Source: Methanobacterium sp. (lineage in GTDB: Archaea > Methanobacteriota > Methanobacteria > Methanobacteriales > Methanobacteriaceae). From it: a stretch of 23,282 bases of DNA. Shown in pieces: positions 3,001 through 6,000 of this stretch (the stretch's first letter is position 1; every line of letters begins with the position of its first letter). Position numbers: made by a program. The stretch spans positions 1 to 23,282 of the forward strand of contig PMWA01000032.1 in NCBI GenBank assembly GCA_003166335.1, given 5' to 3'.

Positions 3001-6000
3001 TGTAGAATCAAATGCTCTAATAGTGGATGTTTATGGTGGAATGGATCCGGGATGTATATATGAGAAGGCAAATGGCTGGTATAAACGAACATTAGGGGAA
3101 CGAAAAGATTCTATAGTTTATATTTTCAGCCACAGTACGATGCCACTGATAACTAATAGATTATGGTTGGCACGGGATAAAACAGATAATTATGACAAAG
3201 AATGGTTTACAGGTATAGCCCACCCAGATGAATACTTAGAAAGTAATGATGTGGGTTATATTGAACATGTAACAATACCTGCTGATTTAGCTGCTATTGT
3301 TGAATTTATTGCTGAACAGGCTGCTTTGGTGCCAATTTCATTAGATGAAACCCAAGTTCAAGAGGGAATAGGTCGAGTAAACACGTTTTATAATAAATAT
3401 AATAGGATTCCAAAAACGATAAGTTTCCCGAATGAAGTTTTATCATTTACTGATTTTACTAGATTAATTGACTATTATGGTTTGAATTACAATTTCCTAC
3501 AATACGGTATGACCAGTGTAATAACCGAACCAGCTACCGGGGTATAAGGAATGACTGTAATCAACTGTTTAATTTATAACGGTAGCCATGCAGCTCAAGA
3601 TGATGTTCAAGGTACCATAAACGCTTTGAATACGCCAGATTTTAAAGTCAATTTATCGGGAACTATAGATGCAAAATCATTAACAAGTGATATAAATGTT
3701 TTATTGATACCTGGTGGGGATGGAGGATTAACATATTTACAATGTGGTGATTTTAATGAAAAGGATATCCAGGATTTCATATATAATGGTGGAGCAGGAT
3801 ATTTTGTTTGCGCTGCCAGTTATGTTGCCGCTAAACAAGCGGTAGGGGTTAAAAATTATGTAGGTTGGGGTGTTGCACCTACTGTAATAGCCAACGGATT
3901 AACCGACAATGAACCCAACGGACTGCTCATTAAGGTTTTAAATATATTAGGAATCAGTGGATTATTCACTATAAATCATTTCCAGGGACCGTTCTTTACA
4001 GATCCAACCAATACTATGACCGTTTTCGCGACTTTTGCAGATAACCAAACAGGACATGAAGGAGCAGCTGCTATTGTTGGAGAAAAATATGGTAAAGGAT
4101 ATTCTGTTTTAAGTAGTGTTCACCCTGAAAATAAAGAATCAACTTATACTTTAGTTCAGAATTTAGTTAAACTAGCTAATAATGGAGGTAATAGTGTGAC
4201 AAGTTTTGTAATACAAGATTTAGAGGATGCTGGAAGTAGGGTAAAAAGTTGGATTGAAACTAATAAAAAGTTACCTGCTTATGTGGCAATTAAGGGATTA
4301 AATGTTCTAATGCCTGATTATTTGTATTTAATGACTGGTTTACTCGTTACAGGAACTACAATAAATACAATGGCAGTTAAAACTCCGATAGCAACAACTG
4401 AAAACTTCAAGGCTGGAACTCTAACCAAAGCAGATTATGAAAACATGGCTTTGAGAATTAAAAATTATATCGAAAAATATGGACAAGCACCCGCCTATGC
4501 ATCAACATCATTAGGTAATATGCCATTTGAAGATTTGATTTATAATTTCAGTCGAATATGGGCTGTTGCAATACCAGCATCTATAAGCTGTACTCCTTTA
4601 TCTGCTCCAATTATTTCAGCAGGATATTGGGAGCAATTAGAAAAAGGAACCGGAAAAACATTTAACAATTTAACAGCCCTTACACTTGCAGTGGAAAAAT
4701 ACTGTACATACAATGGTTATTTCAATAATCAAAAAACATTCCCTCAAGAGCTACAATCATTAGAAGATGATATGAATGGAAAGGATAATGGAATAGTTGA
4801 TGAGGATAACTGTGTAGACTTTGCGGAATGTTGTACAAAACTTGCCCGTGAAAAAGGTTATGGTGCTACCTTATATGGTGTTTATTGTCCTGTAGAACAG
4901 ATAAACCATGCAGTAGTGCATGTAACTGGTGGAGAGTTTGTTAATAATACATGTGTGATTAATGGACAAACTTTATCAGGTATTATTATAGACTGGGCTA
5001 AATTAGCTAGTGATGGAGGAGCTATTGGAACATTTTGGTGTGATATTAACCAGGCAACTGAAAATCCGTCATGGCTTCCCTATGAATAAAATTTTACTTT
5101 TTTTGGAGGTTATGAAATTTATGAAATCACATCCAAGTGTAAAACATCCATATAAAAAAACTAAAAAGTTCTATAATTAGTTTTTATTTCTTTAAACATT
5201 GGATTATTTTTTGTCAATCTTTTGTAATGGTAAGATTGTCTATGTTGATATTTGTGTTATTTCCGATTTCAGAATAATAGATATTGTATCCATCCGAAAA
5301 TGTTATTGTTTCTACATTGATTTGAGATTGCAACTCCTGTAAATAATTGAAATTATCGGTTGCGCCAAAATTAGAATTATCAGTTACCATCCATATTATA
5401 TATTTTGTTGATGAATTTAGAATAATTTGATTATTCTGAGGATTAATATCGGTGCTTTTATGATTTTTATAATATATAATAGATTGATTTGTTTTTCCAG
5501 ATACGTTGTATCGGAGGTTAGTTAAAGATTCATAATTAGTGTAATAGTACATATATTTTCTCCAATCATCTTCATTTGTGAAAAAAATCAATGTATCGTT
5601 TGGATTAAAGTCGTTTAATGATTCGATAAAATATTGTGTAGTTAAATCTTTTGATTGTATATTCCCATAATCGATTCCTTTAGGATTAGGTGAAAGTGAA
5701 GTAAATTGTGTGATACTAAAAAATACACATAAAACAAGTAATAATATTATTAAATAATTTGAAGGGATCCCTTTAATTTTTTTATTCAAATTTGAAGAAA
5801 AATTAACAATTACATAACTAATTACCAGGACAAAGACTGGTACATAAATTAAAGTATAACCAGGTTTTGGTATATAGATTAAGAAATAAAAAAGGAAGGA
5901 AGGAAATATCCATAATATTAAAAAGATTGCCTTGCTATTTCTGAGGATAGATAAAGTGAATTTATTAAAATTTAAGGCAATGTAAATTGATAAAATAAAA

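What a model noticed while it worked through the whole genome (the two positions that open the first line are those of the whole stretch)
3551..5089. Virus lysin with a glutamine-amidotransferase-like hydrolase domain beside PMBR repeats and a divergent Pei domain
The lysis gene of the integrated virus element, g00326 (C17:3551-5089, 512 aa), is not a plain PeiW/PeiP-type endoisopeptidase. It has three parts: residues 1-215 fold as a class I glutamine amidotransferase with an intact Cys87-His191-Glu193 triad, residues ~220-335 hold pseudomurein-binding (PMBR) repeats, and residues ~360-512 are a very divergent Pei (peptidase C71)-like cysteine peptidase domain. Two host paralogues, g00364 (C20:5928-7322) and g00446 (C23:1886-3223), have a signal sequence, an Asn/Thr-rich linker, the same triad-bearing domain and PMBR repeats but no Pei domain. 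The amidotransferase-like domain is proposed to be a second, new kind of pseudomurein hydrolase (a gamma-glut [...]
Evidence so far: The model of residues 1-270 from 24 sequences has pLDDT 92 and pTM 0.82. Foldseek against PDB finds Pdx2/YaaE glutaminases (1q7r E 7.6e-10, TM 0.75; 2nv2 TM 0.79), HisH, and GatD of the peptidoglycan amidation complex MurT/GatD. Invariant columns in the 24-sequence alignment are C87, H191, P192, E193, G55, G56; the triad is kept in g00364 and g00446. Pfam gives PMBR 2.3e-13 and BPL_N 1.5e-11 on g00326, and BPL_N+PMBR rows for g00364 and g00446 (pfam.tsv). The C-terminal 172 residues give three independent weak matches, all to Pei: PHROG pseudomurein endoisopeptidase 0.0035, Pfam Peptidase_C71 0.07, PDB PeiW 8jx4 0.12. 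The gene is the last of the tail/lysis block and is 90% identical in the G [...]
(Added by a program. Inside this text positions count along the whole contig: contig position 1 is position 1 of the stretch shown here. "Call 12" and the like, gene names such as g00115 and contig names such as C1 are that model's own, and its searches are not shown. The text may have been shortened before it was handed on; [...] marks where a part breaks off. The agent that wrote the report below was given it as the finding of a first reader that could run no searches.)

Follow-up and report, generated by a model that had tools for sequence, protein, structure and literature searches.

The report
Three-part methanogen virus cell-wall lysin
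The last gene of an integrated methanogen virus encodes a cell-wall-degrading enzyme that joins the known Pei-type peptidase and wall-binding repeats to an extra, intact glutamine-amidotransferase-like catalytic domain, which may be a second, so far undescribed kind of pseudomurein-cutting enzyme.

Summary
Window 3551-5089 (+) is an open 512-aa gene, the last gene of a tailed provirus whose other parts lie on other contigs.

The protein has three parts:
- Residues 1-215 are a class I glutamine-amidotransferase fold (VIA Z 22.2 to Pdx2) with PGG, Cys87 and His191-Pro-Glu193.
- Residues about 217-340 hold two PMBR repeats.
- Residues about 346-512 are a divergent Pei/transglutaminase-type peptidase with invariant Cys421, His453 and Asp481. 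A 5-sequence profile finds PeiW (E 5.5e-4) and PeiP as its top two PDB hits, and Foldseek's top hit is PeiP.

New here:
- The leaderless three-part form recurs in 19 of 152 representative proteins, with Pei-like (12) or PeiR-like C39 (7) peptidases interleaved on the N-domain tree.
- All three parts are under similar purifying selection (omega about 0.09-0.13 against a 90% identical copy).
- The host carries secreted single-domain versions in a three-gene cluster that recurs by coordinates in 8 genomes.

No activity is shown. That the amidotransferase-like domain cuts a gamma-glutamyl isopeptide bond of pseudomurein is a reasoned inference. Described Methanobrevibacter virus lysins (227-272 aa) lack this domain.

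The parts
3551..5089 (+). Lysin gene, 512 aa, no signal sequence. It starts 3 nt after the stop of the upstream gene and is followed by an oligo-T tract.
3551..4195 (+). N-terminal class I glutamine-amidotransferase-like domain (Pfam BPL_N family), residues 1-215
   Evidence: Pfam. pLDDT 83-98. VIA Z 22.2, rmsd 2.2 A over 185 residues to Pdx2 2nv2_F. Foldseek.
3710..3718 (+). Pro54-Gly55-Gly56, the position of the oxyanion-hole motif of triad amidotransferases
   Evidence: P in 170, G in 172 and G in 178 of 192 domain rows. Aligns with PGG of YaaE 1q7r. Codons checked.
3809..3811 (+). Cys87, the predicted nucleophile, sitting between strand 82-86 and helix 88-93
   Evidence: C in 172 of 192 rows, with 11 gaps. 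Invariant in 12 of 12 leaderless relatives. Secondary structure. Aligns with the GTCAG Cys of 1q7r.
4121..4129 (+). His191-Pro192-Glu193, the 'HPE' motif completing the triad
   Evidence: H in 171, P in 156 and E in 175 of 192 rows, with 17 gaps. Invariant.
4199..4570 (+). Two pseudomurein-binding repeats (PMBR), residues about 217-340
   Evidence: Pfam PMBR 2.3e-13, 2 stretches. Two helix/hairpin units with pLDDT 82-97.
4586..5086 (+). C-terminal divergent Pei / transglutaminase-like cysteine peptidase domain, residues 346-512. Residues 352-393 are poorly modelled.
4811..4813 (+). Cys421 within the N-C-V-D motif, at the start of helix 421-434; predicted nucleophile of the Pei-like domain
   Evidence: Invariant in 5 of 5. 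Aligned to NCTD of PeiW and PeiP. Codon checked.
4907..4909 (+). His453, predicted triad histidine of the Pei-like domain
   Evidence: Invariant in 5 of 5. Aligned to the GH of PeiW.
4991..4993 (+). Asp481, predicted triad aspartate of the Pei-like domain
   Evidence: Invariant in 5 of 5. The PDB alignment stops before this residue, so its role is inferred.
2831..3547 (+). Upstream partner gene, 238 aa: a conserved 'domain X' (flavodoxin/CheY-like alpha/beta fold, function unknown) plus one weak PMBR-like repeat
3..1589 (+). Two tail-fibre-like genes at the cut end of the contig (3-287 is open at its 5' end; 321-1589). These are the right end of the provirus structural module.

Best explanation
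The gene encodes the endolysin of a tailed, integrated virus of a pseudomurein-walled methanogen. It is made without a signal sequence and acts on the wall from inside at the end of infection.

The two PMBR repeats in the middle anchor it to pseudomurein. The C-terminal domain is a divergent Pei-type (peptidase C71 / transglutaminase-fold) Cys421-His453-Asp481 peptidase. It most likely cuts the Ala-epsilon-Lys isopeptide bond, as PeiW and PeiP do.

The N-terminal domain is a self-standing triad glutaminase-type fold (Cys87-His191-Glu193) with no synthase partner. I infer that it is a second catalytic module that attacks one of the gamma-glutamyl isopeptide bonds of the pseudomurein peptide through a gamma-glutamyl-thioester intermediate. 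Candidate bonds are Glu-gamma-Ala in the stem, or the Glu joined by a gamma bond to Lys. The lysin would then cut the peptide network at two different bonds.

Shown: the anatomy, the conserved residues, the provirus position, the recurrence of the architecture and the purifying selection. Inferred: all activities, the bond cut by each domain, and how the protein leaves the cell.
For: (1) Position. In the 90% identical copy in G017 the gene is the last of a module with small and large terminase (phrog_979, 3.9e-66), head protease, adaptor, a 1363-aa tape measure and tail genes. The window's element is the same kind, split over contigs C16, C36, C84 and C17. Host genes follow: a PMT_2 glycosyltransferase and a cation efflux gene.

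(2) N-domain fold. VIA Z is 22.2 to 20.5 for Pdx2/YaaE chains and 20.3 to 18.4 for HisH, and all top 21 rows are glutaminase subunits. Foldseek agrees. The A5 profile finds YaaE 1q7r at 1e-4, with PGG and the elbow Cys aligned.

(3) Triad. It is conserved across 192 domain rows from the 153 proteins held at that point: C 172, H 171, E 175, the rest mostly gaps. It is invariant in 12 of 12 leaderless relatives and kept in both host paralogues.

(4) Recurrence. 19 of the 152 proteins with the domain are leaderless and 440 aa or longer (18 if P0002, the window protein's own 99%-identical cluster, is not counted apart). Of these, 12 end in a Pei-like or transglutaminase domain and 7 in a PeiR-like C39 peptidase. 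On the N-domain tree the two C-terminal types are interleaved. The window protein is sister to P0003 (75% identical N-domain, C39 C-terminus, SH-aLRT 100), and P0087 (C39) is sister to P0091 (C71). The N-domain has therefore been kept while the peptidase was exchanged.

(5) Selection against the G017 copy. N-domain dN/dS is 0.113 (68.4 synonymous and 40.6 non-synonymous differences). PMBR is 0.131 and the C-terminal part 0.092.

(6) Host counterparts. The host has signal-bearing versions fused to PMBR only. An amidotransferase that needs a cytoplasmic synthase could not work outside the cell.

(7) Chemistry. Pseudomurein contains gamma- and epsilon-isopeptide bonds: UDP-Glu-gamma-Ala-epsilon-Lys-Ala, with a further Glu on Lys through a gamma bond (passages of PMC10117817; PMC4592898). 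Triad amidotransferases hydrolyse the gamma-amide of glutamine; this last point is established knowledge, recalled.

(8) C-terminal domain.
Against: - No enzymatic evidence exists for any part.
- The window protein and its nearest kin (P0002, P0003) have G-Y-F-V-C-A-A-S. Phe stands two residues before the Cys where 164 of 192 rows have Gly, and Ala stands two after where 173 have Gly. This clade also sits on a long branch of 1.12. That could mean altered or reduced activity.
- True glutaminase subunits are usually nearly inactive without their synthase (recalled), and none is present here.
- No match to the gamma-glutamyl hydrolase family (Pfam Peptidase_C26) appeared at E<=1.
- The family (Pfam BPL_N) also occurs in many bacterial proteins that lack any wall-binding domain, alongside GH97, Peptidase_C69, FGase and Por_Secre_tail domains. 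It is therefore not specific to pseudomurein.
- The N-domain was found in only 24 of 41 related genomes and in 0 of 9 of family f2, so it is not a universal pseudomurein enzyme.
- Known active lysins PeiW, PeiP and PeiR work without it (PMC6189367 passages).
- The window protein itself scores below Pfam's C71 threshold (13.4 against 22 bits).
- dN/dS rests on a single pair.
Confidence: 0.45

Rival explanations
1. The N-domain is catalytic and acts on the wall, but on another bond or group. It could be an amidase cutting the amide between N-acetyltalosaminuronic acid and Glu, the counterpart of a muramoyl-alanine amidase. It could also be a deamidase removing an amide group from an amidated Glu and so changing wall charge or susceptibility.
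For: The triad and PMBR linkage are the same as in the best explanation. About half of pseudomurein methanogens carry MurT/GatD-like amidation genes (passage of PMC10117817), so amidated residues may exist. GatD chains are among the structural matches: 5n9m at 3.2e-8 and 9sqj at 2.7e-8.
Against: Deamidation alone would not open the wall, so it fits a lysin poorly. The acyl group of the sugar-Glu amide is unlike glutamine. GatD matches are weaker (TM 0.53-0.58) than Pdx2 (TM 0.74-0.81).
Confidence: 0.2
2. The N-domain is not a hydrolase in the lysin. It serves as a binding, oligomerisation, stabilising or regulatory module, like the non-catalytic amidotransferase-like middle domain of GH42 beta-galactosidases or DJ-1-type chaperones. 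The Pei-like domain does all the cutting.
For: GH42 middle domains and DJ-1 proteins are among the matches: 3tts, 4uzs and 5xb7, and DJ-1D at 2.2e-10 by profile. The nucleophile elbow of the window's clade is atypical. PeiW, PeiP, PeiR and the usuvirus lysins work without it or lack it.
Against: Cys, His and Glu are kept in nearly every non-gap row and in all 12 leaderless relatives, including the window's clade. Non-catalytic relatives usually lose the triad (recalled). Purifying selection is as strong as on the peptidase domain.
Confidence: 0.2
3. The family is primarily a host wall-building or remodelling enzyme, for example a gamma-glutamyl transpeptidase that makes or exchanges cross-links. 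The virus uses its copy for something other than lysis, such as modifying the wall at entry or blocking superinfection.
For: The host keeps secreted copies next to a secreted PMBR-transglutaminase in a cluster that recurs by coordinates in 8 genomes. Exported transglutaminases are the published candidates for cross-linking (passages of PMC11915815, and PMC10117817). A thioester intermediate can be resolved by an amine as well as by water (recalled).
Against: In the virus the domain is fused in one leaderless polypeptide to the lysin peptidase, at the lysis position of the genome. A wall-building activity there would oppose lysis.
Confidence: 0.1

Closest known systems
PeiW / PeiP pseudomurein endoisopeptidases (peptidase C71; PDB 8jx4, 8z4f)
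   Same: PMBR repeats come before a C-terminal Cys-His-Asp transglutaminase-fold peptidase. PeiP is Foldseek's top hit at 6.2e-10, and PeiP of psiM2 is the top hit in the viral library at 2.1e-8. The 5-sequence profile hits PeiW at 5.5e-4 and PeiP at 0.014. The gene sits at the end of a tailed virus genome.
   Different: There are two PMBR repeats, not four (four according to passages of PMC6189367). The catalytic domain is far diverged: 13.4 bits against the 22-bit Pfam cut-off. A 215-residue amidotransferase-like domain is added at the N-terminus, which PeiW and PeiP lack.
PeiR of provirus phi-mru and the usuvirus C39 lysins
   Same: These are lysins of Methanobrevibacter viruses built from PMBR-like repeats and a C-terminal cysteine peptidase. 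Seven relatives of the window's N-domain carry exactly this C39 type of peptidase.
   Different: PeiR is described as two PMBR repeats plus C39 with nothing else (PMC6189367 passages). In Supplementary Data 2 and 3 of PMC11375127, the MSTV1 Pei is 272 aa and the four C39 lysins are 227-233 aa. All are too short to hold the extra domain. The window protein has a Pei-like peptidase, not a C39 one.
Pdx2/YaaE, HisH and other glutaminase subunits of class I (triad) glutamine amidotransferases
   Same: The fold matches (Z 22.2, rmsd 2.2 A over 185 of 191 residues). PGG, the elbow Cys and His-Pro-Glu are present.
   Different: There is no synthase partner or domain. The domain is fused to wall-binding repeats, and the host copies are secreted. 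Sequence identity is only 10-19%. Pfam places it in BPL_N, not in SNO or GATase.
Gamma-glutamyl hydrolase / PuuD type enzymes (peptidase C26) - named from memory, not fetched
   Same: These are class I amidotransferase-fold Cys-His enzymes that cut gamma-glutamyl amide bonds in peptides without any synthase. This is the working model proposed here.
   Different: No sequence match to the Pfam family was seen at E<=1, and none was listed among the structural matches shown. The resemblance is of mechanism only.
Two-enzyme endolysins of phages of Gram-positive bacteria (e.g. CHAP endopeptidase + amidase around a binding domain) - recalled
   Same: One polypeptide carries two different catalytic domains and a wall-binding module, cutting two bonds of the wall.
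   Different: The wall polymer, the binding repeats and both catalytic folds are different. To my knowledge an amidotransferase fold has not been reported as a lysin domain, and none turned up in my literature searches.

Membership tests
Class I (triad) glutamine amidotransferase fold | Alpha/beta fold with the nucleophile between a strand and a helix | tested here: met
   Strand 82-86, Cys87, helix 88-93. Z 22.2 to Pdx2. TM 0.80.
Class I (triad) glutamine amidotransferase fold | Cys-His-Glu triad with the His-Pro-Glu motif and a Gly-rich oxyanion loop | tested here: met
   C87, H191, P192, E193, G55 and G56 are invariant in 12 of 12 and present in 171-178 of 192 rows. However, the elbow has Phe where 164 of 192 rows have Gly.
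Glutamine amidotransferase enzymes proper | A synthase domain or subunit that receives the ammonia | tested here: not met
   No synthase domain in the protein or in the neighbouring genes. The host paralogues carry N-terminal hydrophobic leaders. A partner acting in trans cannot be excluded by sequence.
Pfam BPL_N (PF09825) | Score above the curated cut-off | tested here: met
   44.2 bits against a cut-off of 24.2. The nearest ESM Atlas clusters are all BPL_N at 0.95.
Peptidase C71 (Pei) | Score above Pfam's curated cut-off | tested here: not met
   The window domain scores 13.4 bits against 22, and the G017 copy 17.4 bits. Relatives with the same domain type pass: P0131 at 28.3 bits and P0154 at 24.5 bits. 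They match the window-type profile at 2.6e-36 (P0131) and at 3.2e-55 with 55% identity (P0154). Membership is therefore supported only through intermediates.
Peptidase C71 (Pei) | Cys-His-Asp triad in transglutaminase-like order | tested here: met
   C421, H453 and D481 are invariant in 5 of 5. Cys and His align with PeiW and PeiP. The Cys sits at a helix start, and His and Asp on or after strands.
Peptidase C71 (Pei) | Fold like solved PeiW/PeiP | tested here: met
   8z4f_A PeiP is Foldseek's top hit at E 6.2e-10 over 306 columns. The overall TM is low (0.14/0.23) and rmsd 18.5 A, because the domains are placed differently.
Peptidase C71 (Pei) | Cleaves the Ala-epsilon-Lys bond of pseudomurein | not testable with these tools
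   Needs an enzyme assay. Substrates are described in PMC4592898.
PMBR-containing wall-binding proteins | Pseudomurein-binding repeats above the Pfam cut-off | tested here: met
   49.9 bits against 24.9, two stretches.
Peptidase C26 (gamma-glutamyl hydrolase) | Sequence match to the family | tested here: not met
   Not among the Pfam families at E<=1, nor among the listed families of 144 relatives (30 scanned, 114; one search lists at most 5 families per protein).
Endolysin of a tailed virus | Gene at the end of the structural/tail module of a (pro)virus, with no signal sequence | tested here: met
   The domain starts at residue 1-3.

The most novel reading that the evidence does not exclude
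Amidotransferase-fold Cys-His-Glu enzymes fused to PMBR repeats are the missing gamma-glutamyl isopeptidases of pseudomurein. The host would use secreted copies, together with PMBR-transglutaminases and the uncharacterised 'domain X' proteins of the same recurring three-gene cluster, to remodel or recycle its wall. Its viruses would carry leaderless copies of all three domain types in a two-gene lysis cassette. That would make a new enzymatic class of cell-wall hydrolase and a three-activity toolkit against methanogen walls.
Probability: 0.3. Interest if true: 0.8.

Novelty: new variant of a known kind. Interest (0 to 1): 0.62.

Why it matters
Only one bond of pseudomurein (Ala-epsilon-Lys) has a known cutting enzyme, and only three enzymes have been characterised: PeiW, PeiP and PeiR. 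A 2024 review (passages of PMC10791045) calls archaeal wall hydrolases 'still very mysterious'. The host's own remodelling and recycling enzymes are unknown (passages of PMC10117817).

A second catalytic domain that recurs in many methanogen-virus lysins, and in secreted host proteins, would give a direct experimental handle on both questions. Existing chromogenic gamma-glutamyl substrates could be used.

Lysins of rumen and gut methanogens are also being explored as methane-mitigation and protoplasting tools (PMC6189367 passages; PMC8963448, search listing and abstract start only). Two-site cutters could be more effective or have a different host range.

Tried and rejected
- NCBIfam: no family for the lysin.
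- Deposited phage genomes: no match by protein (P0001; P0043) or by DNA for window 1-5200.
- IMG/VR with P0001: no relative. With alignment A5, only 3 weak giant-virus loci at 22-30% identity, which I judged irrelevant.
- Alignments A2 and A3 were not accepted as queries because they lack a conserved stretch.
- First whole-protein homologue search: only 3 proteins, because of the candidate cap. The exhaustive representative search on the N-domain was what opened the family up.
- Domain X of the upstream gene. Pfam and PHROGs gave nothing beyond a weak PMBR. The PDB profile search gave nothing below E 0.47. Foldseek gave nothing at E<=0.001. VIA-wide gave only generic CheY/flavodoxin-like matches, Z 8-10.5 with many ties. 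The ESM Atlas feature hits to GH25/Rv2525c-like lysozymes scored 0.85-0.86, which is under the level that means anything. I assign no function.
- Attachment-site search between the lysin's downstream spacer and C16: only short chance matches.
- Terminator and promoter scans around the gene: nothing above shuffled expectation.
- Holin-like membrane gene between 1590 and 2850: none seen by eye among ORFs of 30 aa or more.
- Peptidase C26 membership was considered and not supported.
- I did not run complex prediction, the look-up of sequencing runs or read laying. No claim here depends on binding or expression.
- Medvedeva et al. 2023 (the 'compendium' of methanogen viruses) is not in the library; only citing papers were found. 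It may describe lysin architectures that I could not see.
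Full report
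**The observation**

Window 3551-5089 on the + strand is an uninterrupted 512-codon frame, and the opposite strand is full of stops. Pfam gives PMBR 2.3e-13 (two stretches) and BPL_N 1.5e-11. PHROG 37889 'pseudomurein endoisopeptidase' scores 0.0035 on residues 361-441. Pfam Peptidase_C71 scores 0.069 on residues 335-512. There is a weak phmmer match to PeiW 8jx4, at E 0.47 with the whole protein as query. NCBIfam has nothing.

**Setting**

The contig starts inside a virus element. Window genes 3-287 and 321-1589 are tail-fibre-like (a weak PHROG of unknown function). Then comes a short opposite-strand insert, a 238-aa gene (2831-3547), and three bases later the lysin. After the lysin's stop there is an oligo-T tract, followed by convergent host genes: a PMT_2 glycosyltransferase and a cation efflux gene.

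A 90% identical copy lies in a related, nearly closed genome at G017:C1:1834568-1836103. There the 45-kb region upstream holds small and large terminase (phrog_979, 3.9e-66), a head protease, an adaptor, a 1363-aa tape measure and tail genes. The 241-aa homologue of the upstream gene comes next, and the lysin is the last gene. The proteins of that provirus find their counterparts in the window's genome on contigs C16, C36, C84 and C17. The window therefore holds the right end of a fragmented provirus.

The lysin is 90% identical between the two elements, while its neighbours are only 54% (upstream gene) and 63% (tail fibre) identical. The elements are mosaic.

**The N-terminal domain**

A full-length AlphaFold model built from a 43-row alignment has mean pLDDT 83.9, with block means of 83-98 over residues 1-210. 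Re-aligning Foldseek's matches with VIA gives Z 22.2 (rmsd 2.2 A, 185 residues) to Pdx2 of PLP synthase. Values are Z 20.5-21.9 for other Pdx2/YaaE chains and 18.4-20.3 for HisH, and the first 21 rows are all glutaminase subunits. Foldseek itself gives 2nv2 at 1.4e-9 with TM 0.80, 1q7r at 2.1e-9 with TM 0.74, and GatD at 3e-8.

In the model, Cys87 sits between strand 82-86 and helix 88-93, Pro54-Gly-Gly follows strand 50-53, and His191-Pro-Glu193 follows strand 183-188. This is the layout of triad amidotransferases. A 17-sequence profile of the domain finds YaaE 1q7r at 1e-4, with PGG and the elbow cysteine aligned, and DJ-1-type proteins around the same two motifs.

**Size of the family and conservation of the triad**

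An exhaustive search of 1.84 billion representatives with residues 1-215 found 161 proteins at E<=0.001 and 48 at E<=1e-10. In an HMM alignment of 192 domain copies from the 153 proteins then held, Cys87 is present in 172 rows (11 gaps), His191 in 171 and Glu193 in 175 (17 gaps each). Pro54, Gly55 and Gly56 are present in 170, 172 and 178 rows. In 12 leaderless relatives these residues are invariant. Both host paralogues have GICAGAY and HPEL.

One thing counts against full activity. The window protein, its 99% twin and P0003 read G-Y-F-V-C-A-A/G-S, with Phe where 164 of 192 rows have Gly. This clade also sits on a long branch.

**The C-terminal domain**

A region search found P0154, which is 55% identical over this part. 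The N-domain relatives P0007, P0010 and P0016 carry the same domain. In the alignment of the five, Asn420, Cys421, Asp423, His453 and Asp481 are invariant. The profile of that alignment finds PeiW (5.5e-4) and PeiP (0.014) as the two best of only five PDB matches at E<=10, with the N-C-x-D cysteine and the histidine aligned.

Three of the five members match Pfam Peptidase_C71, the best at 3.3e-6. P0131 matches the window-type profile at 2.6e-36 and Pfam C71 at 1.8e-6. The G017 copy reaches PHROG Pei at 2.5e-6. Foldseek's best match for the whole model is PeiP 8z4f_A at 6.2e-10, and PeiP of psiM2 is the best match in the viral library.

The window's own domain stays under Pfam's cut-off, so I call it a divergent relative of Pei reached through intermediates. 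I do not call it a demonstrated member.

**Recurrence of the architecture (new here)**

Among the 152 proteins with the domain, 35 start with it within 12 residues. Of those, 19 are 440 aa or longer (18 if P0002, the window protein's own 99%-identical cluster, is not counted apart). Twelve end in a Pei-like or transglutaminase domain: P0001, P0002, P0007, P0010, P0016, P0081, P0099, P0131, P0091, P0031, P0034 and P0039. Seven end in a PeiR-like C39 peptidase: P0003, P0005, P0013, P0032, P0044, P0065 and P0087.

I built a quick maximum-likelihood tree of 65 N-domains. I left out P0002, domain copies shorter than 170 residues, second copies of multi-domain proteins, and proteins ranked below P0062 unless they were leaderless lysin types. 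On that tree the two C-terminal types are interleaved. The window protein pairs with P0003 (C39) at SH-aLRT 100, P0087 (C39) pairs with P0091 (C71) at 98, and P0044 (C39) groups with three Pei types at 92. The C39/Pei labels need at least 5 and 7 changes on the tree. The N-domain has thus been retained while the peptidase was swapped.

The leaderless forms are not one clade on this tree, but its deep branches are weak and I ran no AU test.

P0154 shows a further variant: the same C-terminal domain behind a different N-terminal part that had no Pfam match.

**Selection**

Against the G017 copy, Nei-Gojobori dN/dS is 0.113 for the N-domain (68.4 synonymous and 40.6 non-synonymous differences, dS 0.76). 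It is 0.131 for the PMBR part and 0.092 for the rest. This is one pair only. Even so, the N-domain is as constrained as the peptidase.

**Host counterparts**

C20:5928-7322 and C23:1886-3223 encode proteins with a hydrophobic N-terminus (judged by eye; no signal-peptide predictor was run). An Asn/Thr-rich stretch follows, then the same domain (BPL_N 1.6e-14 and 1.4e-16) and PMBR repeats.

On C20 the first of these is the third gene of a cluster. The cluster consists of a PMBR + domain X protein (2447-3481, minus strand), a PMBR + Transglut_core protein (4229-5368) and the amidotransferase-like + PMBR protein. By coordinates, the same three matches lie side by side in G002, G004, G005, G006, G012, G016 and G017. 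Pfam was run only on the G000 genes.

The virus therefore carries, in two leaderless genes, the three domain types that the host secretes as three separate PMBR proteins.

Distribution:
- The N-domain was found in 24 of 41 related genomes: genus g1 17 of 18, family f3 4 of 5, f4 1 of 1, f2 0 of 9.
- Domain X was found in 19 of 41, almost only in genus g1.

**Mechanism**

Pseudomurein's peptide is Glu-gamma-Ala-epsilon-Lys-Ala, with a further Glu on Lys through a gamma bond. The known Pei enzymes cut Ala-epsilon-Lys (passages of PMC10117817; PMC4592898). Triad amidotransferases attack the gamma-amide of glutamine and pass through a gamma-glutamyl thioester (recalled, established).

The domain here has that machinery but no synthase. 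It is tethered to pseudomurein-binding repeats, and it is secreted in the host or built into lysins in viruses. It is therefore most simply read as a hydrolase of a gamma-glutamyl isopeptide bond of the wall, which would make the lysin a two-site cutter. This step is inference. I give the whole reading 0.45.

The rivals are:
- another bond or a deamidase role (0.2);
- a non-catalytic role (0.2);
- a wall-building or other non-lytic role (0.1).

**Comparison with what is in print**

PeiR is described as two PMBR repeats plus C39 (passages of PMC6189367). MSTV1's Pei is 272 aa, and the usuvirus C39 lysins are 227-233 aa (Supplementary Data 2 and 3 of PMC11375127; main-text passages). None of them can hold the extra domain.

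Full-text searches turned up no description of an amidotransferase-like lysin domain or of amidotransferase-like PMBR proteins. The term sets were pseudomurein with 'glutamine amidotransferase' (3 papers, none relevant by their listings), BPL_N, endolysin with amidotransferase, and pseudomurein endolysins. Term look-ups within five further papers found nothing either. The library lacks Medvedeva et al. 2023, so this is not proof of absence.

**Verdict**

The architecture is shown to be a recurrent, selected feature of methanogen-virus lysins with host counterparts. The hydrolase role of the extra domain remains a well-motivated hypothesis that can be tested directly.

Noticed in passing
window 2831-3547 (+): The gene directly upstream of the lysin (238 aa) has a conserved roughly 165-residue 'domain X' plus a weak PMBR-like repeat. 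The AlphaFold model has pLDDT 86-97 over residues 1-165 and a CheY/flavodoxin-like alpha/beta fold. Invariant or nearly invariant residues include D12, E78, R115 and D119. No family or function could be assigned. The same gene precedes the lysin in G017 and, N-terminally damaged, in G012:C53. P0158 (56% identical) is listed from a contig of the same length (13,514 bases) and source as P0003; adjacency was not verified.
   Followed up: yes
G000:C20:2447-7322 (L014): A host three-gene cluster of secreted PMBR proteins carries domain X, a transglutaminase core and the amidotransferase-like domain. By match coordinates the same trio lies together in G002, G004, G005, G006, G012, G016 and G017.
   Followed up: partly
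P0154 (477 aa): This is another lysin-like variant. Its C-terminal domain is 55% identical to the window's and matches Pfam C71 at 2.7e-5. That domain sits behind an unrelated N-terminal part of about 300 residues that has no Pfam match. It looks like a further case of module exchange in front of the same peptidase.
   Followed up: partly
window 3803-3817 (residues 85-89): The nucleophile elbow of the window protein and of P0002 and P0003 reads F-V-C-A-A/G. Phe replaces the Gly found in 164 of 192 family rows, and this clade sits on a long branch (1.12) of the N-domain tree.
   Followed up: partly
window 3551-5089 versus neighbours: The lysin is 90% identical to the G017 copy, while the upstream gene is 54% and the tail-fibre gene 63% identical. 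The lysin gene appears to have been exchanged or conserved independently of its neighbours.
   Followed up: partly
window 1666-2281 (-): Small ORFs on the opposite strand lie between the tail-fibre genes and the lysis genes (98, 45 and 42 aa). By eye the 42-aa product looks like an AbrB/MazE-type antitoxin fold. This may be an inserted accessory module.
   Followed up: no
window 3-287 and 321-1589 (+): The tail-fibre-like proteins repeat a C-terminal motif (I-T-S-I-C/L-Q-x-G-x-N ... G-D-x-I-G-C-S-x-L-Y) once in the first ORF and twice in the second. This suggests repeated receptor-binding modules.
   Followed up: no
window 8202-8837 (-), 11262-12132 (+): Outside the virus element there is an HNH endonuclease with two AP2 domains (phrog_99, 3.4e-49). 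There is also a SocA/Panacea-domain antitoxin gene overlapping a 124-aa gene, a likely toxin-antitoxin pair.
   Followed up: no
ESM Atlas: One of the nearest clusters to the N-domain is a 196-aa BPL_N-only family of 95 members labelled 95% viruses (Uroviricota). In BFVD, an uncultured-phage protein named 'Peptidoglycan binding-like' matched the model at 4e-4. Amidotransferase-like BPL_N domains may also occur in bacterial phages.
   Followed up: no
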